From an uncultured cyanobacterium (GTDB taxonomy: Bacteria > Cyanobacteriota > Cyanobacteriia > Cyanobacteriales > CAWUOF01), in assembly GCA_963744145.1 (NCBI GenBank), contig CAVUSO010000001.1, positions 5,184,001 to 5,248,000 of the forward strand: DNA of 64,000 bases, in the 5' to 3' direction. Of this stretch, positions 3,001-55,266 are shown one piece after another (the stretch's first letter is position 1; each line of letters begins with the position of its first letter). Both the position numbers and the translations under genes were made by a program. Below the pieces are notes generated by a model. That model saw only the letters and a program-made list of their open reading frames with translations. It was not told the DNA's origin and made no database searches.

Positions 3001-4344
3001 AAAGACAATATTAAAGCGATTTTGTGATTCAGTTAATCCTAATTCTGGCACAGGTGCTTGTGGGCCGACTATTAGTTCTACTTCAGGAATTACATCAATA
3101 ATAACTTGACCATTCGCTCCAAAAGCACCTCGAATTTTTTCTCGCCATGCTTCCAGTTGTGTTTCACTTTCAGTTAACAGTTGCCGCACTAATCCTTGAA
3201 AAGCATTAACGATCGCTGAGTAAGGTATATTTTTTTGAAATTGATCAAATTTCCCACCAGTGAAATAGCCACACCGTCGGGTATTTGGTTTGTGAATTTC
3301 GGCCACGATCGATGATTTGCCAATCCCAGAATAACCCGCTACTAACATCATTTCTGTTTGGGATTTTTCTGGGTTTGCTACTCGCTCAAATGCTGTTAGT
3401 ATGGCTTCAACTTCTACCTCCCTTCCGTAGAGTTTTTGGGGAATTTGAAACTGATCGGAAATATCTTGAGTTCCCAACGGGAAATCTGATATATTTCCGG
3501 TTTTTTGTAACTGGGATAAACATTCTTCTAAATCTCCTCGGATTCCGAAAGCATTTTGATATCGCTCCTCAGCAGTTTTTGCCATTAGTTTCATCACCAG
3601 ATCTGACAAGACTTTAGGTATTTCTGGATTAATTTGATGAGGTGCTATGGGGACTTTGGCAATATGACAATGTACTAATTCTAATAAATCATTTGTTTCA
3701 AAAGGAAGTTGTCCTGTCAGTAATTCATAGAATGTGACTCCTAGGGAATAAAAATCGGTCCGGTAATCTAGGAAACGATTCATTCTTCCTGTTTGCTCTG
3801 GTGAAATATAAGCTAAAGTTCCTTCTAGGACATTGGGATTTTTGAGGGTAGGGTTTTCGCGGGTGAATTGAGTGGAAATACCAAAGTCTATGATTTTGAG
3901 TTGCTTGGTTTCTGGATTAAAAACAATATTGGCTAGATTAATATCTTTATGGACAATATATTTAGCATGAATCTGACCCAAAATCTCAGTAATTTTAATC
4001 GCAATACTTAGGAATTCCTCTAGGGAGAATAGCTCCTTCCCTGCTGCTCTCCTCTGATCCATTAAGTCTTTTAAAGATCTTGCACCAAAATCCTCAAGAA
4101 TGATGACCAAAGTCCGCTGATTGGGTTTTAATTCATAAGCTTTAATTACCCCATCTAGCTCCAGATTTCGGGTGATTTCATATTCCTGTTTATAACGGGT
4201 GAGTTCAGCAGGAGTAGGATAATCTTCTTTGAGGAATTTGAGGATAACAGGTTGCTGATCCTGTTGACGGATACCTCGATAAACAATGGAGTTGCTACTT
4301 TCGTAAATTTGAGTGAGAATTTGGTAGTTGTTAATGTTGATCAT
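1..4344 (-). CDS. Ser/Thr kinase + AAA ATPase + GAF multidomain sensor (HstK-type), truncated by window edge
   Basis: Not in ORF track because it runs off the edge. Minus strand from ATG 4344 reads MININNYQILTQIYESSNSIVYRG. Contains kinase HKDINLANI and DFG, Walker A GYSGIGKS, FLDDLQWAD, and a GAF-like ENAGAQRGCLI near the edge. Confidence 0.9.
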   Translation of the reverse strand, partial: MININNYQILTQIYESSNSIVYRGIRQQDQQPVILKFLKEDYPTPAELTRYKQEYEITRNLELDGVIKAYELKPNQRTLVIILEDFGARSLKDLMDQRRAAGKELFSLEEFLSIAIKITEILGQIHAKYIVHKDINLANIVFNPETKQLKIIDFGISTQFTRENPTLKNPNVLEGTLAYISPEQTGRMNRFLDYRTDFYSLGVTFYELLTGQLPFETNDLLELVHCHIAKVPIAPHQINPEIPKVLSDLVMKLMAKTAEERYQNAFGIRGDLEECLSQLQKTGNISDFPLGTQDISDQFQIPQKLYGREVEVEAILTAFERVANPEKSQTEMMLVAGYSGIGKSSIVAEIHKPNTRRCGYFTGGKFDQFQKNIPYSAIVNAFQGLVRQLLTESETQLEAWREKIRGAFGANGQVIIDVIPEVELIVGPQAPVPELGLTESQNRFNIVFGNFIRVFCTKEHPLIIFLDDLQWADSATLKLIELMMTDTELQYLFLIGAYRDNEVSPTHPLMMTIDRLSKEGAIINFITLAPLQPENISQLIADVLHRDTDSVKSLAELVMKKTGGNPFFVNQFLKTLAAEKLINFDWQHHNWQWNIDQIEAKNITDNVVELMINNLKKLPSITQQVLRLASCIGASFHLSTLSIVCEQPPEIIFSDLFAAIQAGYILPTSELDENLLIQDYKFLHDRVQQAAYTLIAENEKKAVHLKIGRLLQVNTPGTEQEAKIFDIVEHFNLGRELITDQTEKIALAKFNLIAARKAKDSNAYLAAQEYLQIGISLLSDDCWQEEYQLTLDLHKERTEIEYLNSNFDYAEELIYLVIDKCKTNLEKAEIYNVLIIMLTMMSKYEEAINAARQALNLLGIELTNQDFTNALQKELAEVRKLWQPREISILLKQPEMTNLEMRAAVKLLVSVDPAAYFSNTELYGIIAAKMAYISIKYGPIAASAKVYTSYGIILSSVLREYRSGYEFAKLGLDLSERFNDSSMKAQASNNIANHVQHWVIPMKKAEVINNKGYQAGLESGELQFSGYIALHQMVNFFVSGKIFSEILAVLNDYLKFTAKTKNLLAYHSIIACQLPIYNLSGLSPKSREFASDSLTEADYIEDCRTNQNFFALANYLTYKAQVLYLYGDNVTALDCIQEAQTMLPYVQGMITNAVNNLYISLILLALYPTFSESDQVSYQKQIETNQQQMKIWADSCPENFLHKYLLVEAEIARISGQEMAALDLYDRAIASAHENEYIQNEALGNELAAKFWLGKGKEEIAQLYMLKAHYGYQLWGAKRKVEDLEQKYPQFLSNKSANKQTDLRTTITGRKSSTTGGNSDLDFATVIKANQTISGEIMLDNLLSSLMKILIENAGAQRGCLILSNQGKLMIEAEGSIIQPVILWRSTPITNTQILSEAIVNYVARTQESLVLNDATQTGKFTSDPYIKQHQPKSVLCVPLINQGQLIS

Positions 4345-29963: not shown

Positions 29964-31565
29964 TTACACTTCATCCATTGCTAACATCTGAATCAGACGG
30001 GGTGTTCCTGGATCAAACCCAGCAATATCCCAAGATTTTGGATCTTTTGGATCAACTAAGGAGATATTGTAGGGAGCAAGTGCAATATAAATTGCTTTGG
30101 CATGGGGATTGATTTTATGGCGATATTCTGCTAAAGCTTGACTAGGATGTTTCTTTCCTGCCCAACTTTCACAATCAGTCCAAAAGCAAAATAGATCTGC
30201 TTTAAACTTGGTTTTAATTGCCCAATCGTAAGCGACAGATGCGTCAGTTCCACCGAAATTCTGGTTACTGGCTTTGGCGATCGCTTGACTAAAAGAATCC
30301 TGTGCGGTAATCTTTAAATCACGGAAATCAGTAGCAAAACCACGAATGACATAATTTTTTTCTGCTTTCGCAGTTGCTAAAGCCATGACGGTAGCAATTT
30401 CGCAACAAGTTAAGCCAATGGAACTAACAGTATTAAAGGACATGGAACCGGAAATATCAACAGCGTGTAAGAAAGTTTTCCCGGTTGGAGGAAGTACATC
30501 AAAAGCTAGTTCTAAGGCTTTCTCTAAGATATCAATAATCTGCCGAATTGGTTGCCAAGTTTTTTTACTCCGACCTAATTCTCCTCCTGATTGATAGGTT
30601 TTGATAGCTTTCAAGATGTCAATCGGATGAATCCGTCCTTTCTGTAAATGTTCCCGACTATTGAGTAACTTAGCAATACGCTTCAAATTAGACTGATGAT
30701 GAGTAGTTAAAACCTCTAATTGTGTTAATGATCCAAGATTTCGCAGCATCGCACCAATGGGCATTTCATTAAACAGCAATTGCCATGCTTTTTGATCCAT
30801 TTTACCTACAGGTGCAGCCATTTCATGGGTTAATCTTCCTTTCGCGATCGCTTCATGAGTTTTTTCTGGATGACGTTTTAACCATTCATACCACCAAATT
30901 TGTGCTAAGGGTTCAGCTGGAATTTTAGAGGGTAATTTATCCCATCCGTGCATTACCCACTTAAACAATTGATTATGGGTTTCAGTGATAGGTTTCACAT
31001 GAAATAAGCGCAACGCATCACGATGGGAAAAACCTTGACGTTGTTGGTATTTCAACAATTGATAAGCTAATTCTTGCACATTATCACGGGAAAACCAAGC
31101 TTTACCAGCTTCACGTACAATTTTACCAAAACCACGCATGGCTTTAGTGTAACCTAGCCATTCATAGAAATGACTACCAGTTCGTACTACTTGCAGAAAG
31201 ATTTCTCCAAAAGCTTGTTTAGCTTCTTGGGAATTGTCCATTGATAACAACACTAACGCAAATAAAGGGGCACTATTATTAATTGCGCGTCCATCACTAG
31301 CATAGAGAATTTCGGTAGCAACTTGGTTCGGATTAAGAGCGATCGCTTGTTTGAGGATTTCGACAAATTCGATCGTTAACTCATGTTTACCTGCATAATA
31401 GGTATTTTGAGCTGTACCAATTAACAAACAACGACGTAATACATTCCAAATATCAGCTTTAAACATCCAACCACCAGAACGTCCTGGAACCATTTCTGTT
31501 TCTCGACCAGGAATTGGTTGAGTCTGGGGGGTTTGATTTTTTACAAAAAACTTATAATTCATCAT
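29964..31565 (-). CDS. rsr: Ro60/Rsr TROVE-vWA RNA-binding protein
   Basis: KYQQRQGFSHRDALRLFHVKP, AMLRNLG, RIHP, vWA MIDAS DISGSM, GGTD, WTDCE. Confidence 0.92.
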   Translation of the reverse strand: MMNYKFFVKNQTPQTQPIPGRETEMVPGRSGGWMFKADIWNVLRRCLLIGTAQNTYYAGKHELTIEFVEILKQAIALNPNQVATEILYASDGRAINNSAPLFALVLLSMDNSQEAKQAFGEIFLQVVRTGSHFYEWLGYTKAMRGFGKIVREAGKAWFSRDNVQELAYQLLKYQQRQGFSHRDALRLFHVKPITETHNQLFKWVMHGWDKLPSKIPAEPLAQIWWYEWLKRHPEKTHEAIAKGRLTHEMAAPVGKMDQKAWQLLFNEMPIGAMLRNLGSLTQLEVLTTHHQSNLKRIAKLLNSREHLQKGRIHPIDILKAIKTYQSGGELGRSKKTWQPIRQIIDILEKALELAFDVLPPTGKTFLHAVDISGSMSFNTVSSIGLTCCEIATVMALATAKAEKNYVIRGFATDFRDLKITAQDSFSQAIAKASNQNFGGTDASVAYDWAIKTKFKADLFCFWTDCESWAGKKHPSQALAEYRHKINPHAKAIYIALAPYNISLVDPKDPKSWDIAGFDPGTPRLIQMLAMDEV

Positions 31566-31604
31566 AATTTTCAGCCCGTCAGGACAATTAAAAGTGTGGT
31601 AATA

Positions 31605-31732
31605 TGGTGTAGTGGAGCGGGAATTGCACCCGCATCTCGTCGATTAAGGGGGATGTCGTGTTACAGCGATAATCCTCAATCTGCGTCCCTTTCGGGCAAA
31701 AATTGCGCTTTACTATTAAGCTACCCACCACA
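31605..31732 (-). ncRNA. tRNA-like (Y RNA-related) RNA upstream of rsr
   Basis: Minus strand: acceptor GUGGUGGG/UCCACUAC-A-CCA, UA, D-arm GCUU-AAUAGUA-AAGC, about 70-nt structured insert replacing the anticodon arm, T-arm GCGGG-UGCAAUU-CCCGC. Confidence 0.8.
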
Positions 31733-31808
31733 TAAAAGGTACTTTTGACTTGTTACTGGTTTATTGTTTCTGTTGGTCTCCTTTGCTTTGATGAATCCAG
31801 ATTAAGCT

Positions 31809-31932
31809 GGTCAACTTCCCTGAAGCTAATTGTGCAAAAAAAAGCTAAAATCCATTGATAATTACTGTTTGAGACCTAGGGGAAGATCCTTGACTAGGGG
31901 ATTCCCTCAACTTTCTGATAACTTTTATAGGT
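31809..31932. repeat. 124-bp direct repeat, copy 1 (divergent promoter region)
   Basis: Matches 32794-32917; contains TCAACTT(T/C)C(C)TGA twice and CTAGGGGA twice. Confidence 0.9.
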
Positions 31933-32015
31933 CAATACTTTGGACACTTTTACGGTAAATCTAGAAACAACTGGTAGAGAGACTGGAATACTCAAGCTAT
32001 TTACTCATTAAAGCG

Positions 32016-32509
32016 ATGAAAGTACAGGTTTTATCTATTAAAGCGGCAAAAGAGCCTAACTCCCATGAAGTCTTGTTGTCTATCGGTGTAGATCAGCAAA
32101 CTTTCATATTTACAACTGAAGTTAATCAAGTGGGAGAACATCAAATTCAAACGACTCATGGCGATCGCACTTTTTCAGAAGTATTCAGATTTAATCAGCG
32201 AGTAGCAATGAATGTGAGTAATCTGGTAGTTAAATTTTCCAGCCAACAAATAATTGAATTGCCAGCCGACGTCGGTAATTTTGTCACTCCGGAAGAAACT
32301 GTATCGAAGCTAAAATCTTATGAAAAGGGTAAGCCAATTCAGAGTGATCTGCAAGATAAACAAAAAGTTACGTTATATCTGTCGCCAAGAACTGCATCAC
32401 CGACTCAAAATTCGAGCTGCGGTTGGCTCAGAACCAATATCTGTCATTGCTGAACGTGCGCTGATCTTTTATATGGAACATCCAGAAATAGTAGATGAAG
32501 CCGGCAATA
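32016..32509 (+). pseudogene. Hypothetical domain fused to RHH-like domain; frameshifted and MITE-truncated
   Basis: KQKVTLYLSP in one frame continues as ELHHRLKIRAAVGSEPISVIAERAL in another; extra A at 32387/8. Confidence 0.7.
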
Positions 32510-32931: not shown

Positions 32932-35793
32932 GTGGTACGTCCCAGTTATGGTCCTGAAGCGAAGAAACGCTCTAAACAGTTATTGGCTGTGTTGCTTGAC
33001 TATGCCAATGATGAGTTAAACTGTGATGAATCTACTCTAGATGCTTTACGTCCCCAGATTCAAGTATATTGGCAAACTGAACAGAGATTAATTGTTCGCA
33101 CTAAGATCCGTTTTTTAGAGACTCTGACTAAATTAGGTACAGATTCTCTACTGAGTGGAGAACAGATTAAGGAAGCACTACGACGGTTTGAGGATTTTTT
33201 AGAGATTCTGGAAGATCATCGTCCCAACCGTGGTGGGTCAGAAATTTGGCACTTTACACTTAATTTATGGTATAAGCGCAGTCATCCTATTGCTAACTTA
33301 GAACGATTTGAGCAGGAGTGGGAGCAACGTCGTCCCCAAAAATCTAAACAGGTAACAGGAGATCAAAGTGAGCAAGTACAGAATAATTTTTGGTGGGAAC
33401 TCTGTCGGGAGAGTTTAGAATTACAGGATTATCAACGGTTAACTACTAATGTGCTGACTGTTCCTGATGGAGTTGCGTTTGATTTGCATGAAGTTTATAT
33501 ACCATTGAAGTTGGTAGAAAGAAAACAGCAAGATCGGCGATCGGTAGATATTTCTGCGGAGCAAGGATCACAGTTTTATGAACCGGAAGAACTAGAAACA
33601 GCTCTAAGTTTAACGATCGCAGAGTTTTGTCAGCGATTTTTCCAATCTGAACTTAAACAACGGATTGCGATCGTCGGGGAACCTGGTTCAGGTAAAACTA
33701 CTTTGCTCCAAAAAATTGCTACTTGGTTACTTGAACATCAAGTTTTACCAATCTGGATTTCTCTTGCTGATCTGCAAGGATCTACTTTAGAACATTATCT
33801 ATTAAATGACTGGCTGAAACAAGCTACTCACAAAATCCGTGTTTCGGAAGAACTTCAGGAAGGTTTAGCTCAACAATTCCATCTAGGTAAGGTTTGGTTA
33901 TTACTCGATGCGGTTGATGAAATGGCTGATGATGCTAGTATGGCACTTAGTATGATTGCGCGTCAATTGCGAGGATGGGTTGGAGATGGGAATGTGGTGC
34001 TTACTTGTCGGTTGAATGTGTGGGATCATGGTAAAAATGCTCTTCATAGTTTTACTACCTATCGAAATCTTAGTTTTAGTTATGGTGATACTCGCGATCG
34101 CGATCAAGTTGGTGCATTTATTCAGCGTTGGTTTTCGTCTCGTCCTGAATTTGCCGATCGCTTACATCTGGAGCTAAATAAAATTGAACGAAAGCGGATT
34201 AAAGATACTGTAAAAAATCCGCTCCGATTAGCATTATTATGTCGGACTTGGTCTTTAGCTCAAGGGAATTTACCTAATACTAAAGCTACTCTCTATCAGC
34301 AATTTGTGGAAACCATTTATGAATGGAAACAGGATCGCTTTCCCACTACTCCTGCTCAACGACAGCAATTAAATCAGGTTTTGGGAAAACTAGCTCTTTT
34401 TGCTTTAGAACAACCGGAAATTAAATTTAGATTAAGTTATTCTTTTTTACAACAAGCATTTGCTGAGTCTCTTGAATTAATTCCCTTAGCATTACAATTA
34501 GGTTGGTTAAATCAGGTAGGTATTGCTGCTAATTCTGGTGAAAAAGTGTATGCTTTTTATCACCCAACCTTTCAGGAATATTTTGCAGCTCAAACAATTA
34601 CAGATTGGCATTTTTTCTTTGATCCTAAGCATAATTATCCCATTTTTAGTCAACCTTGGCAAGAGGTAATTTTCCTCTGGTTGGGACGAAGTGATGTTTC
34701 CGTAATCGATAAAGAAGCTTTTTTACAAGCATTAACAGAGTTTGATGATCAATGTGGTGGTTTTTATGCTGTTCGAGCTTATTTTATTGCAGCAGTAGGA
34801 TTAGCGGAATTTCCCCATTATAGCAAAGCAGAAATAATTTTATCACAATTAATTGATTGGCGTTTTGCTGTACATAGATCGTCAAAGTTTGGTGCAATCC
34901 CACTTTCAGAAGATGCAAGAATTGCTTTACTTAAGACTGATCGAAGTTTAGCAATTTTAGGTTTAGAAAAATTCATTAGTTCCGTTTCCCATCCTTTTAT
35001 AATTTGGAACGCAGCTTATACACTTGGTCGAGCGTTAGATCCAGGGAATTTAGTCGCGATCGCTGCTTTAATTCGGTTACTGGATATCATTCAATCGGAA
35101 CCTTTGCGTTTACAGATTAGTGAACATTTGGGGAAAGTTGATCCTGGTAATGCGATCGCAATTGCTACTCTTGTGAGTATAATTGAATCAGCTTCTTCCT
35201 TATCTATCTGTCGGAAAGCAGCTTATAGTCTGGGAAAAATCTGTCCAGAACATCCCTTAGCGATCGCAACTTTGGAACGTTTGGTTGCTACTACTGATCT
35301 TAGTTTCAAAAGACAAGTCATCGAAAATTTACTGACATTAGATCCAGGAAATGTAATCGCGATCGCAGTTCGAGAAACCATTAAAAATACCCGACCGCAA
35401 ACCAGTCAGAAACGACCAAAGAAATATGCAGATACAATTAGTATAGCACAAACCATCAAAATATTAGAAAACAAATTAGATACTGTCAAAGATCCAGATA
35501 ATCTTAGACGAATTGCTTACCGTCTTGGTAATTTACAACCTGGACATTCTCAAGCAATCGAAATTTTAATTAGACTACTAACATCAGCAAATTCGTCAGG
35601 ATTCCATAAACAAGTGAGTGAAAATCTCAAAGAGATCATCACCGATGAGCAATTGAGTGAAATCGTTAGTAAACTCAAACCAGGAGTAAATCAAGATGGA
35701 ATAGCTTCCAGCGATCGAGAATCTGATAAAATGCTATGGTATTGCGCTCAAAGAATGACTTATGATCGTTTTTATCAAGCATGGAATGGATAA
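32932..35793 (+). CDS. NACHT (STAND) NTPase with N-terminal putative wHTH-like domain and C-terminal HEAT repeats
   Basis: GEPGSGKT, LLLDAVDE, LTCR, NPLRLALL, FYHPTFQEYFAA, repeated AAY.LG..DPGN..AI. Confidence 0.9.
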   Translation: MVRPSYGPEAKKRSKQLLAVLLDYANDELNCDESTLDALRPQIQVYWQTEQRLIVRTKIRFLETLTKLGTDSLLSGEQIKEALRRFEDFLEILEDHRPNRGGSEIWHFTLNLWYKRSHPIANLERFEQEWEQRRPQKSKQVTGDQSEQVQNNFWWELCRESLELQDYQRLTTNVLTVPDGVAFDLHEVYIPLKLVERKQQDRRSVDISAEQGSQFYEPEELETALSLTIAEFCQRFFQSELKQRIAIVGEPGSGKTTLLQKIATWLLEHQVLPIWISLADLQGSTLEHYLLNDWLKQATHKIRVSEELQEGLAQQFHLGKVWLLLDAVDEMADDASMALSMIARQLRGWVGDGNVVLTCRLNVWDHGKNALHSFTTYRNLSFSYGDTRDRDQVGAFIQRWFSSRPEFADRLHLELNKIERKRIKDTVKNPLRLALLCRTWSLAQGNLPNTKATLYQQFVETIYEWKQDRFPTTPAQRQQLNQVLGKLALFALEQPEIKFRLSYSFLQQAFAESLELIPLALQLGWLNQVGIAANSGEKVYAFYHPTFQEYFAAQTITDWHFFFDPKHNYPIFSQPWQEVIFLWLGRSDVSVIDKEAFLQALTEFDDQCGGFYAVRAYFIAAVGLAEFPHYSKAEIILSQLIDWRFAVHRSSKFGAIPLSEDARIALLKTDRSLAILGLEKFISSVSHPFIIWNAAYTLGRALDPGNLVAIAALIRLLDIIQSEPLRLQISEHLGKVDPGNAIAIATLVSIIESASSLSICRKAAYSLGKICPEHPLAIATLERLVATTDLSFKRQVIENLLTLDPGNVIAIAVRETIKNTRPQTSQKRPKKYADTISIAQTIKILENKLDTVKDPDNLRRIAYRLGNLQPGHSQAIEILIRLLTSANSSGFHKQVSENLKEIITDEQLSEIVSKLKPGVNQDGIASSDRESDKMLWYCAQRMTYDRFYQAWNG

Positions 35794-54976: not shown

Positions 54977-55215
54977 TCGATGCAATTATTTCTAGTTCCT
55001 GTAATATGGTGCGGGTCCGAAAAATCAATACGCATCCAGCATGACAAAAAAACTCTCATTCAATTTCTGGGTGACTTGTCCTCGACCTAACCTCCAGGTA
55101 AAAGCAGGTTGATCTTCGGTGCTATCTGTGACTGTTGGGTCCCTAGCTGCTCTTCACTGCTCACGAATAGAATTTCTTTTCCGAAATGAAGGCGATCGCT
55201 TCTGATGTATCTAAA

Positions 55216-55266
55216 AGTAGATGTACCCTGATTTCCCTAACCCCCACGGTTAGGGTATTTTTTTTT
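55216..55266 (+). ncRNA. NsiR1-like small RNA, copy 2
   Basis: AGTAGATGTACCCTGAT, CCCTAACC/GGTTAGGG hairpin, T-run; TCCGAA 38 bp upstream of the TAG. Confidence 0.55.

What the first reader, a model, noticed from the sequence alone, without database searches (positions are those of the whole stretch)
31605..31732. tRNA-ordered, CCA-ending Y-RNA-like RNA with an alanine identity pair next to rsr
Seen: 39 nt upstream of the TROVE start, the minus strand forms an acceptor stem 5'-GUGGUGGG/UCCACUAC-3', discriminator A and an encoded CCA (the two ordinary tRNAs here lack CCA). It has a normal D-arm, a T-arm with loop UGCAAUU, and a ~70-nt insert instead of an anticodon arm (CCC-GAAA-GGG hairpin; GAUUGAGG/CCUUAAUC helix). 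Read from G31731, the third pair is G-U. Known: bacterial Ro60 genes lie next to Y RNAs; described YrlA RNAs mimic tRNA in circularly permuted order with a closed acceptor stem; G3-U70 plus A73 is the AlaRS identity set also used by tmRNA. Inference: a re-permuted Y RNA class with a free CCA end that could be matured by RNase P/Z and possibly alanylated, linking Rsr to translation or tRNA-damage surveillance.
Basis: partly seen in the sequence, partly recalled or inferred. Interest (0 to 1): 0.9.

Follow-up and report, generated by a model that had tools for sequence, protein, structure and literature searches.

The report
tRNA-ordered, CCA-ending Y RNA beside rsr
This is a real small RNA gene next to the Ro60 (rsr) gene that looks like a tRNA whose anticodon arm has been swapped for a Ro60-binding module, and it shows that cyanobacterial Y RNAs are built in normal tRNA order with a free CCA end, not in the scrambled order reported so far.

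Summary
On the minus strand, 31731 to 31605, lies a 127-nt RNA gene, 39 nt before rsr. It has an 8-bp acceptor stem, a D arm, a T arm, a discriminator A and an encoded CCA. A 73-nt module replaces the anticodon arm.

It is not a one-off. Of 81 cyanobacterial rsr loci, 77 carry 1-7 such units upstream on the rsr strand. Acceptor strands pair within a unit (8/8 in 125 of 134 units anchored without any pairing criterion). The tRNA Levitt pair covaries (G:C 115, A:U 61 of 184).

The internal module carries the sequence blocks of YrlA, the known Ro60-bound Y RNA. But the order is D arm, module, T arm, with an open acceptor end. Rfam's YrlA model misses the window. In relatives it hits below threshold, and only across the junction of two neighbouring units. 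That geometry matches the published cyanobacterial "YrlA with a long acceptor stem", which is therefore probably mis-framed.

The G-C/U-A/G.U + A + CCA end is conserved in 58 of 72 units of its class. Only 4 of this genome's 63 tRNA genes encode CCA.

Alanylation remains untested; sister units carry other acceptor ends.

Verdict: a new variant of a known kind, of moderate to high interest.

The parts
31605..31731 (-). Whole predicted RNA, 127 nt: G31731 to the encoded CCA at 31607-31605
   Evidence: Sequence. Rfam tRNA 33.8 bits. Fold z = -2.76. Model R1 scores it 130.5 bits.
31724..31731 (-). Acceptor stem, 5' strand GUGGUGGG
   Evidence: Pairs 8/8 with 31609-31616. In alignment A1, 3 of the 8 pairs change on both sides. 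Among units anchored without a pairing criterion, 125 of 134 pair 8/8.
31609..31616 (-). Acceptor stem, 3' strand UCCACUAC. The third pair from the top is G31729.U31611.
   Evidence: G.U at this pair in 19 of 22 architecture-I units and in 58 of 72 units of the 8bp+N+CCA class.
31605..31608 (-). Discriminator A31608 and encoded CCA (31607-31605)
   Evidence: An encoded N-CCA is present in 103 of 195 units, against 4 of 63 tRNA genes of this genome.
31707..31721 (-). D arm GCUU-AAUAGUA-AAGC, preceded by U31723 A31722 (tRNA positions 8-9)
   Evidence: Rfam tRNA alignment. The fourth D-stem pair is C-G in 11 and U-A in 11 of 22. The Levitt 15:48 pair covaries: G:C 115, A:U 61 of 184; the window has A:U.
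31686..31697 (-). Hairpin GCCC-GAAA-GGGA (GNRA-type loop), directly before the GNCGAA-like motif GACGCAG (31687-31681)
   Evidence: Three of the 4 hairpin pairs change on both sides. It aligns with the GNCGAA region of published YrlA rows.
31638..31685 (-). Long bulged hairpin that stands in for the anticodon arm. It comprises CG/CG, a 2x2 internal loop, GAUUGAGG/CCUUAAUC and an inner UCG/CGA stem. It holds the near-invariant block GAGGAUUAUCG (31677-31667). Presumed Rsr-binding module.
   Evidence: helix 5 is 91.4% paired, with 2 pairs changed on both sides. The GAGGGUUAUCG block is shared with the cyanobacterial and actinobacterial YrlA rows of PMC4201824 Supplementary text 2.
31617..31633 (-). 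T arm GCGGG-UGCAAUU-CCCGC (G instead of U at tRNA position 55)
   Evidence: Three of the 5 pairs change on both sides. The T-loop start UGC goes with a D loop holding AG, and UUC goes with GG: 21 and 102 of 184.
31574..31585 (-). rsr leader hairpin GUCC-UGAC-GGGC, between the RNA and the start codon
   Evidence: A matching hairpin motif lies within 45 nt of the start codon in 72 of 80 loci. It resembles the hairpin inside the RNA. A regulatory role is inference.
29964..31565 (-). rsr (Ro60 orthologue), 533 aa
   Evidence: ORF. Pfam vWA_Ro60 7.9e-41 and TROVE 1.4e-18.
31786..31820 (-). Conserved block GGGAAGUUGACCAGCUUAAUCUGGAUUCAUCAAAG, 55-90 nt upstream of the RNA. Candidate promoter or regulatory region.
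   Evidence: Conserved in 8 of the 9 aligned closest loci. The consensus promoter scan did not call it, so its role is inference.

Best explanation
The 127-nt gene is a bacterial Y RNA, the partner RNA of the Ro60 orthologue Rsr. It shares its building blocks with YrlA but keeps the native tRNA order.

Anatomy, from 5' to 3':
- acceptor 5' strand;
- D arm;
- a hairpin and GNCGAA-like motif, then a long bulged helix holding GAGGAUUAUCG, in place of the anticodon arm;
- T arm;
- acceptor 3' strand, then A and CCA.

Shown here:
- the fold and its covariation;
- tRNA-type tertiary covariation;
- strict linkage to rsr, always on the same strand;
- the open acceptor end, with the CCA conserved.

Inferred:
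- The RNA is made on one transcript with rsr, from a start at least 55 nt upstream.
- It is cut out by the tRNA-maturation enzymes: RNase P before G31731, which is preceded by a U, and trimming back to the encoded CCA.
- It binds Rsr through the internal module.
- It offers its tRNA-like elbow and CCA end to a tRNA-recognising partner. Candidates are PNPase, as in Deinococcus and Salmonella, the CCA-adding enzyme, or a synthetase.

The window's copy is the only unit at this locus. Most relatives have tandem arrays. The published permuted cyanobacterial YrlA corresponds to the 3' half of one unit plus the 5' half of the next.
For: Fold and family
- Rfam tRNA scores 33.8 bits against a gathering score of 29. 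Fold z = -2.76.
- Of 81 rsr loci (80 relatives plus the window), 77 have at least one unit upstream on the rsr strand. The other 4 have under 175 nt of upstream sequence or a run of N.
- All 289 nhmmer hits of the core profile lie on the rsr strand.
- In alignment A1 (22 units of the window's type), 94.9% of cells pair and 12 pairs change on both sides. None of 500 shuffles reaches this, and slid controls pair at most 53%.
- Without any pairing criterion, the acceptor pairs 8/8 in 125 and 7/8 in 9 of 134 units. Shifted controls reach at most 6/8.

tRNA order rather than permuted order
- Within a unit the acceptor pairs 8/8 in 97 of 104 cases. Across neighbouring units it does so in 7 of 52.
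- Five loci with a full 2 kb upstream, the window among them, have a single unit. A permuted RNA cannot be built from one unit.

tRNA-like shape
- The Levitt 15:48 pair is G:C in 115, A:U in 61 and other in 8 of 184.

Kinship with YrlA
- The blocks (hairpin)-CGMMGA-..GAGGGUUAUCG.. match the YrlA-II alignment rows.
- Rfam YrlA RF02553 hits relatives at 28.6-40.5 bits, each hit spanning a unit junction.
- One such hit, L080 1728-1897, reproduces the published Nostoc punctiforme geometry: 171 nt long, 104 nt from Ro.

Linkage to rsr
- In a sample of 151 genomes of the phylum, 13 have a cyanobacterial-type Ro60.
- Twelve of these have a long R1 match on the rsr contig. The thirteenth shows one upstream of rsr when searched directly.
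- The only two long matches in other genomes were two adjacent tRNAs and an interrupted tRNA-like sequence.

Processing
- No terminator-like site and no consensus promoter lie between the RNA and rsr.
- U precedes the 8-bp stem in 149 of 195 units.
- M. smegmatis YrlA is cut by RNase P and receives CCA (PMC4201824, passages read).
Against: - There is no expression, end-mapping or Rsr-binding data for this or any cyanobacterial unit. No RNA run was obtainable, and the published cyanobacterial ends are stated to be undetermined.
- The exact GNCGAAN0-1G motif is absent from the window, which reads GACGCAG. It is present in only 58 of 195 units.
- Rfam's YrlA model does not match the window.
- My structural scan required pairing, so pairing percentages are partly built in. 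One search was run to remove that bias.
- The scan has a background: 23 hits outside the upstream regions at the 6-of-7 criterion.
- The loci come from related genomes, so the counts are not independent.
- The rsr-proximal unit lacks CCA in 69 of 77 loci. A free encoded CCA is therefore not universal in the family.
Confidence: 0.78

Rival explanations
1. The RNA is not only a Y RNA but a chargeable tRNA mimic. After maturation it would be alanylated by AlaRS through G3.U70 + A73 + CCA, as tmRNA is. That would protect its 3' end or link Rsr to translation factors.
For: - The top of the stem reads G-C, U-A, G.U, then A and CCA.
- This exact set occurs in 58 of 72 units of the 8bp+N+CCA class, in loci named after many genera, and with both internal architectures (20 of type I, 48 of type II).
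- Neighbouring pairs vary by compensation while the G.U stays.
- Units without CCA have G-C at that pair.
- Only 4 of 63 tRNA genes here encode CCA.
- The genome's own tRNA-Ala and tmRNA carry G3.U70 and A73.
- AlaRS charges anticodon-less minihelices and tmRNA. This is established knowledge, recalled.
- Chen et al. raised possible aminoacylation of cleaved M. smegmatis YrlA.
Against: - The G.U is not invariant: 9 of 72 have G-C and 4 of 72 have A-U.
- The second pair is U-A, not the G-C of tRNA-Ala and tmRNA.
- The architecture-I unit before the second rsr of the same genome has A-U there, with C + CCA.
- Other units end in G-1:C73-CCA, U73-CCA or G73-CCA, so no single identity is conserved.
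- The association of G.U with CCA may simply reflect a shared paralogue lineage.
- There are no charging data.
Confidence: 0.15
2. The tRNA-like element is mainly a cis-acting processing or stability signal of the rsr transcript. On this reading RNase P/Z cleavage defines the mRNA 5' end, and the excised piece is a by-product with no function of its own.
For: - It lies 39 nt from the start codon, with no terminator-like site and no consensus promoter between.
- The proximal unit sits at a near-fixed 32-40 nt from the start codon in 58 of 77 loci.
- A conserved leader hairpin follows it.
Against: - Arrays of up to 7 units extend up to about 1.8 kb upstream.
- In one genome the units lie about 5 kb from rsr.
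- Many Nostocales have a further unit downstream of rsr.
- The internal block and the tRNA tertiary pairs are strongly conserved, far beyond what a cleavage signal needs.
- The blocks are shared with RNAs shown elsewhere to bind Rsr.
Confidence: 0.08
3. It is a decayed tRNA gene, a tRNA gene interrupted by an insertion or intron, or half of a permuted YrlA as published.
For: - The Rfam tRNA model is the only family above threshold.
- Interrupted tRNA-like sequences do exist in cyanobacteria, for example L084.
- Published tables list permuted YrlA next to cyanobacterial rsr.
Against: - No anticodon stem flanks the insert, and ARAGORN makes no call.
- The insert is itself the most conserved part and carries covarying helices.
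- The window has one D arm followed by one T arm, with nothing similar in the flanks: 1 nhmmer hit within 2 kb.
- RF02553 gives no hit at E<=10.
Confidence: 0.03

Closest known systems
YrlA (Y RNA-like A; Rfam RF02553; Chen et al. 2014, PMC4201824; Wang et al. 2018, bioRxiv 10.1101/312249)
   Same: - Encoded beside rsr on the same strand.
- Has a GNCGAA-like motif followed by a ..GGUUAUCG.. block.
- Has tRNA-like D and T arms with the covarying Levitt pair.
- Cyanobacterial loci of this family are listed as YrlA in the 2014 tables.
   Different: - YrlA is described as T arm, closed acceptor stem-loop, D arm, with the 5'/3' ends in the Ro60-binding stem and no free CCA.
- Here the order is D arm, Ro module (closed by a GAAA loop), T arm. 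The acceptor stem is open and ends in A-CCA.
- RF02553 does not match the window. It matches relatives only across unit junctions, at 28.6-40.5 bits against a gathering score of 69.
Mycobacterium smegmatis YrlA after processing (Chen et al. 2014)
   Same: It ends up with an opened 7-bp acceptor stem and a CCA tail. RNase P cleaves it and CCA is added in vivo (passages read).
   Different: - There the open end arises by cutting a permuted precursor into two pieces, and the CA is added after transcription.
- Here a single piece in tRNA order has an 8-bp stem and a genomically encoded CCA.
tmRNA (tRNA-like domain)
   Same: - Same topology: acceptor stem plus T arm, with a large functional insert where the anticodon arm would be.
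- Same acceptor features: G.U at the third pair, A73 and a CCA end.
   Different: - No reading frame or pseudoknots.
- A full D arm is present.
- The second pair is U-A.
- Rfam tmRNA models score far below threshold (tmRNA_permuted 13.6 bits against 47).
- The genome has its own tmRNA, G000:C1:1268430-1268818.
- Charging is untested.
Deinococcus radiodurans Yrn1
   Same: An Rsr-bound Y RNA whose T arm lies 3' of D-loop-like features, that is, also not in the YrlA order (Chen 2014 passages).
   Different: - In Yrn1 the terminal stem formed by the 5' and 3' ends is the long Ro60-binding helix, and a 5-bp 'anticodon arm' is present.
- Here the terminal stem is a tRNA acceptor stem with CCA, and the Ro module is internal.
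b7a-tRNA (Burroughs and Aravind 2016, known to me only through Wang et al. 2018)
   Same: A predicted tRNA-ordered RNA of RNA-repair neighbourhoods, said to be occasionally encoded next to Rsr.
   Different: It is said to strongly resemble an authentic tRNA and to accompany band-7 and RtcB genes. The original paper is not held, so no feature could be compared.

Membership tests
YrlA (Rfam RF02553) | Match to the family covariance model at or above its gathering score (69 bits) | tested here: not met
   No RF02553 match at E<=10 in window 31300-32100. Relatives with tandem units give 28.6-40.5 bits, each hit spanning two units.
YrlA (Rfam RF02553) | Permuted order: T arm 5' of the D arm, acceptor stem closed by a loop, RNA ends in the Ro60-binding stem | tested here: not met
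   The order is D arm (31721-31707), then T arm (31633-31617). The acceptor strands are the outermost elements, and the would-be 'ends' are closed by a GAAA loop. The locus has a single unit.
YrlA (Rfam RF02553) | Encoded next to rsr on the same strand | tested here: met
   39 nt upstream of rsr, same strand. Holds at 77 of 81 loci.
YrlA (Rfam RF02553) | GNCGAAN0-1G motif (presumed Ro60 contact) | tested here: inconclusive
   The window reads GACGCAG, one position off. The exact motif is in 58 of 195 units, and the relaxed form GNCG[AC][AC] in 179 of 195.
YrlA (Rfam RF02553) | tRNA-like D and T arms with tRNA tertiary pairs, including the covarying Levitt pair | tested here: met
   15:48 is G:C in 115 and A:U in 61 of 184. 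Positions 18-19/55-56 are GG:UC in 102 and AG:GC in 21.
YrlA (Rfam RF02553) | Bound by Rsr in vivo | not testable with these tools
   No RNA or immunoprecipitation data were available.
tRNA (Rfam RF00005) | Cloverleaf match at or above the gathering score | tested here: met
   33.8 bits against 29, full model 1-71.
tRNA (Rfam RF00005) | Anticodon arm with a 7-nt loop | tested here: not met
   A 66-nt insertion replaces model positions 27-41. ARAGORN makes no call.
tmRNA | tRNA-like domain plus tag reading frame and pseudoknots; match to the Rfam tmRNA models | tested here: not met
   The best is tmRNA_permuted at 13.6 bits against 47. At 127 nt there is no room for a frame. The genome's real tmRNA is elsewhere.
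tmRNA | G3.U70, A73, CCA acceptor end charged with alanine | tested here: inconclusive
   The sequence features are present. Charging is not testable here, and the second pair differs from tmRNA (U-A against G-C).
Yrn1-type Y RNA | Long terminal helix formed by the 5' and 3' ends that carries the Ro60 site | tested here: not met
   The terminal helix is an 8-bp acceptor stem followed by ACCA. The conserved Ro-type block is internal.
b7a-tRNA | Features as defined by Burroughs and Aravind 2016 | not tested
   The paper is not held. Only a secondary description was seen.

The most novel reading that the evidence does not exclude
Cyanobacterial Rsr works with a set of anticodon-less RNAs in tRNA order that end in CCA and are genuine substrates of the tRNA machinery.
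- They would be matured by RNase P.
- They would be charged by synthetases that read only the acceptor end: Ala-type G3.U70/A73 units such as this one, and His-type G-1:C73-CCA sister units.
- These tandem units would be the ancestral form. The permuted YrlA of other phyla would have arisen from them by fixing a transcript that spans a unit junction.
Probability: 0.15. Interest if true: 0.85.

Novelty: new variant of a known kind. Interest (0 to 1): 0.62.

Why it matters
- YrlA-type Y RNAs are defined in the literature as circularly permuted tRNA mimics that lack a free CCA end (bioRxiv 10.1101/312249, abstract and results). Cyanobacterial members are said merely to have a very long acceptor stem.
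- The comparative data here indicate otherwise. In cyanobacteria the units are ordinary-order tRNA mimics with an open acceptor end, often with an encoded CCA. This is a phylum where tRNA genes rarely encode CCA.
- That gives three things:
  - a corrected annotation frame for a whole clade;
  - natural material for the proposed origin of YrlA from dimeric tRNA transcripts;
  - a directly testable case for whether a Y RNA can be processed, CCA-repaired or even aminoacylated like a tRNA.
- The last point bears on the open question of what the tRNA-like domain of bacterial Y RNAs is for.

Tried and rejected
- RNA evidence: the look-up of sequencing runs listed no RNA holder for window 31300-32000. 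None was listed, which is not the same as none existing.
- Literature:
  - Five look-ups, for four papers, were answered 'not held'. These were PMC6047535 (Sim and Wolin 2018), PMC5062991 and doi 10.1093/nar/gkw722 (both Burroughs and Aravind 2016) and PMC10870794 (Sim et al. 2020). I therefore cannot exclude that one of them already re-frames the cyanobacterial RNAs.
  - Full-text searches found no paper describing tRNA-ordered cyanobacterial Y RNAs.
  - The RNase Z search gave only reference-list mentions. What I say about CCA and RNase Z is recalled.
- Copies in the genome: BLAST of the RNA against its own genome found only itself. The profile search was needed to find the second locus.
- Promoters and terminators: the consensus scan found nothing on the minus strand.
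- Weak Rfam lead: RAGATH-21 scores 16.1 bits and shares CUUAAUAG and UGCAAUU. It was not followed up. The 2026 tRNA-mimic preprint does not mention RAGATH or Ro60.
- Scanner limits: my first structural scan missed units with T-loop variants (UGAAAAU, UAAAAAU) or with insertions in the T loop. Of 254 internal-motif sites, 64 fell outside called units.
- Earlier notes of this scan had nothing on this place or sequence.
- False positives of model R1: it also picks up ordinary tRNAs at about 30-44 bits. Two long matches in rsr-less genomes proved to be adjacent tRNAs and an interrupted tRNA-like sequence.
Full report
**1. The observation**

Numbering counts G31731 as RNA position 1.

- GUGGUGGG (31731-31724) pairs with UCCACUAC (31616-31609). 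That is eight pairs, and the third from the top is G.U.
- The stem is followed by A31608 and CCA (31607-31605).
- After U-A come a D arm GCUU-AAUAGUA-AAGC (31721-31707) and a T arm GCGGG-UGCAAUU-CCCGC (31633-31617).
- The 73 nt between them hold a CCC-GAAA-GGG hairpin and a GAUUGAGG/CCUUAAUC helix.
- The CCA lies 39 nt before the ATG of a 533-aa ORF (29964-31565, minus strand). Pfam finds Ro60 vWA at 7.9e-41 and TROVE at 1.4e-18.

Independent scans agree.

- Rfam's tRNA model matches over its full length at 33.8 bits (gathering score 29), with a 66-nt insertion instead of the anticodon arm.
- ARAGORN does not call it.
- The minimum-energy fold reproduces the same helices: -40.1 kcal/mol, z = -2.76, and 0 of 200 shuffles fold as well.
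- The two tRNA genes of the window lack CCA. Only 4 of 63 tRNA genes of the genome encode N73-CCA: an initiator-like tRNA-Met and three in tRNA clusters.

**2. It belongs to a large family**

A search with the Rsr protein found 315 stretches encoding relatives. The best 80 loci, all cyanobacterial, were kept.

Reading their upstream regions and scanning them for T arm, acceptor complement and D arm gave these results:

- 77 of 81 loci (80 relatives plus the window) have 1-7 units upstream of rsr on the rsr strand.
- The other four have under 175 nt of upstream sequence or a run of N.

This scan demands pairing, so I repeated the test without that criterion. A profile of the region between the acceptor strands (from alignment A1) was run over all loci with nhmmer.

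- It gave 289 hits, all on the rsr strand.
- Of the 134 full-length hits, the eight bases before and after paired 8/8 in 125 and 7/8 in 9.
- Shifting the 3' strand by 1-3 nt gave at most 6/8.
- Swapping partners among units gave 8/8 in only about 61 of 134.

On A1, which holds 22 units of the window's type, the full structure holds up.

- It is 94.9% paired, and 12 pairs change on both sides.
- None of 500 shuffles reaches this.
- Slid controls pair at most 53%.
- Compensatory changes occur in the acceptor stem, D stem, GAAA hairpin, long helix and T stem.

tRNA tertiary features covary too.

- The nucleotide after A14 and the nucleotide before the T stem (Levitt 15:48) are G:C in 115, A:U in 61 and other in 8 of 184 distinct units.
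- T loops starting UUC go with GG in the D loop (102). T loops starting UGC, as in the window, go with AG (21).

**3. Linkage to rsr**

I searched a sample of 151 genomes of the phylum with a covariance model built from A1 (R1) and with the Ro60 vWA family.

- 13 genomes have a cyanobacterial-type Ro60 match (126-143 bits).
- 12 of these have at least one R1 match longer than 110 nt on the rsr contig.
- The thirteenth (G029) shows one at 29.8 bits just upstream of rsr when searched directly.
- In one genome (G038) the two units lie about 5 kb from rsr.
- R1 also scores ordinary tRNAs at about 30-44 bits.
- The only two matches longer than 100 nt in rsr-less genomes were two adjacent tRNAs and an interrupted tRNA-like sequence without the internal block.

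The window's own genome has a second rsr paralogue (G000:C1, about 7520200-7521830, minus strand) with two further units in front of it.

**4. Relation to YrlA, and the question of order**

Published YrlA has the order T arm, closed acceptor stem-loop, D arm, with its ends in the Ro60-binding stem. It is stated to lack a free CCA end (PMC4201824, passages read; bioRxiv 10.1101/312249, abstract, results and discussion).

Both papers say that some cyanobacterial YrlAs have a much longer acceptor stem. The legend of Supplementary Figure S1 says their ends were not determined.

The YrlA-II alignment (Supplementary text 2) contains rows from three cyanobacteria (Calothrix, Stanieria, Gloeocapsa). 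In the Calothrix row the sequence runs as follows:

- it starts at ..GGCCGACGAG..GAGGGUUAUCG;
- continues through a T arm;
- then an acceptor-like 3' strand followed by CCA;
- then an A/U-rich spacer;
- then ..CAUGUGGCAGG-UAGCUCAG.., that is, a 5' acceptor strand and a D arm;
- and ends in ..ACAUCCU..UUGUCUGAA.

This is what one obtains by reading from the middle of one unit to the middle of the next in the arrays seen here.

Rfam's YrlA model RF02553 does not match the window at E<=10. In eight relatives and paralogues it gives only sub-threshold hits of 28.6-40.5 bits (gathering score 69), and each spans a unit junction.

- L080 1728-1897 is 170 nt long and ends 104 nt before rsr.
- That is the geometry listed for Nostoc punctiforme in Table S1: 171 nt, 104 nt from Ro.
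- The tRNA model, by contrast, hits single units above threshold.

Four arguments favour the tRNA order as the real one.

- **(a)** Acceptor strands covary within units (8/8 in 97 of 104) but not across junctions (8/8 in 7 of 52).
- **(b)** Five loci with a full 2 kb upstream, the window among them, have a single unit. No permuted RNA can be made from one unit.
- **(c)** The place where the permuted RNA would have its ends is a closed hairpin with covarying pairs, and in the window a GNRA-type GAAA loop.
- **(d)** N-CCA follows the acceptor stem in 103 of 195 units.

The modules are nonetheless those of YrlA:

- a GNCGAA-like motif, exact in 58 and relaxed in 179 of 195 units (the window reads GACGCAG);
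- a GAGGGUUAUCG block, shared with the actinobacterial rows;
- a V-like stem, a T arm and a D arm.

**5. Variation within the family**

There are two internal layouts.

- In the common one (150 of 195 units), the strand AUCCUUGUUC precedes the hairpin. It pairs with GAAUUAGGGU after the hairpin, like a long anticodon stem.
- In the window's type (24 of 195), that strand is missing. A complementary strand CCCCUUAAUC instead follows the UUAUCG stem-loop, giving one long bulged hairpin.
- The remaining 21 units fit neither layout cleanly.

There are three end types.

- 8 bp + N + CCA: 72 units.
- 7 bp + N + CCA: 31 units.
- No CCA: 92 units.

The unit nearest rsr, typically 32-40 nt from the start codon, lacks CCA in 69 of 77 loci. 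The window is one of 6 loci where it is of the 8 bp + N + CCA kind. The window's closest relatives (L002, L003, L005, L008, L011, L014) have the same unit followed by a second, CCA-less unit. The window lacks that second unit.

**6. The alanine reading**

For it:

- In the 8 bp + N + CCA class, the top of the stem is G-C, U-A, G.U with discriminator A in 58 of 72 units. These span loci named after many genera and both internal layouts.
- CCA-less units have G-C at that pair.
- That a wobble pair persists while its neighbours change by compensation suggests selection.
- The genome's tRNA-Ala and tmRNA carry the same G3.U70/A73.

Against it:

- 9 of 72 have G-C and 4 of 72 have A-U at that pair.
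- The second pair is U-A, not G-C.
- The comparable unit before the second rsr has A-U there, with C + CCA.
- Other units end in G-1:C73-CCA, which would look histidine-like, or in U73-CCA or G73-CCA.

Charging is thus possible but unsupported by anything beyond sequence. I give it about 0.15.

**7. How it most likely works**

Shown:

- a conserved L-shape-compatible fold;
- an internal conserved module;
- an open acceptor end with CCA;
- operon-like linkage to rsr.

Inferred:

- Transcription runs together with rsr. No terminator-like site or consensus promoter lies between them. A conserved block sits at 31820-31786.
- The RNA is released by RNase P before G31731. U is at -1 in 149 of 195 units.
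- The 3' end is trimmed back to the encoded CCA.
- Rsr binds through the internal module, by homology with the motif proposed for YrlA and Yrn1.
- The tRNA-like domain is presented to an effector. That effector is PNPase in Deinococcus and Salmonella. In cyanobacteria it is unknown.

**8. Novelty and verdict**

The RNA family is known as YrlA, and its cyanobacterial loci were tabulated in 2014. What appears new is:

- the frame (tRNA order, tandem arrays);
- the open, CCA-ending acceptor;
- the conserved G.U/A end type.

In the papers I could read or search this is not described. Four relevant papers were not held, so prior description cannot be excluded.

It gave me the Rfam accession; it does not concern this order.

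I rate the finding a new variant of a known kind, with interest about 0.6.

Noticed in passing
window 31574-31585 (-), and the 45 nt before rsr in L002-L081: The rsr leader carries a hairpin right before the ribosome-binding site or start codon. The window reads UUGUCC-UGAC-GGGCUG, and most relatives read UUGCCC-NNNN-GGGC[CU]GG[AG]G. It resembles the UUGCCYGAAARGGSCGA hairpin and motif inside the Y-like RNAs. The motif is present in 72 of 80 loci. It could be a site for Rsr autoregulation; this is inference only.
   Followed up: partly
G000:C1:7521785-7522083 (-) = L082 4286-4584 (-); second rsr at L082 2704-4335 (-): The same genome has a second rsr paralogue with two more tRNA-ordered units in front of it. 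The proximal one is of the window's internal type. It ends in C + CCA and almost abuts the start codon. Its third acceptor pair is A-U.
   Followed up: partly
L080 3652-3758, L049 about 3681-3787, and 43 other loci, about 50 nt after the rsr stop codon: This is a third unit type without a D arm. It runs GGCGGGU, directly into AUCCUUGUUC, the hairpin, GAAUUAGGGUUAUCG, a long V arm, a T arm, then ACCCGCC. It lies just downstream of rsr in many Nostocales loci: 45 loci have one downstream profile hit. The window has none.
   Followed up: partly
L050, L057, L069, L044, L046, L019, L023 (T loops of some units): Several units carry an insertion of about 19-25 nt in the middle of the T loop. Its sequence is GC-rich, of the type GUACCCUUCGGGAAGC..CUACAA. 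It looks like a small repeat element landing in a specific spot. A similar piece interrupts a tRNA-like sequence in L084.
   Followed up: no
window 31876-31900 (-) and 31786-31820 (-): Upstream of the RNA lie two direct copies of CCCCUAG, 18 nt apart, and then a conserved block GGGAAGUUGACCAGCUUAAUCUGGAUUCAUCAAAG. Both are shared with the closest relatives. They are candidate promoter or regulator sites, not called by the consensus scan.
   Followed up: partly
window 31608-31732 (-): A weak Rfam match to RAGATH-21 (16.1 bits against a gathering score of 70.3). It shares the unusual loop sequences CUUAAUAG and UGCAAUU. RAGATH-21 may use the same variant D-loop/T-loop elbow.
   Followed up: no
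window 55215-55264 (+): Rfam NsiR1 (nitrogen stress-induced RNA 1) sits just at threshold: 39.3 bits against 39.
   Followed up: no
window 32932-35793 (+): A 953-aa protein with EAD4, NACHT and NCC-H domains, a STAND NTPase of the conflict-system type. It is encoded divergently about 1.2 kb from the RNA.
   Followed up: no
G000:C1:5725312-5727612 and 7372835-7374134: Two dense tRNA gene clusters. Three of the four CCA-encoding tRNA genes of the genome lie in them. The fourth is an initiator-like tRNA-Met at 6353896-6353972.
   Followed up: no
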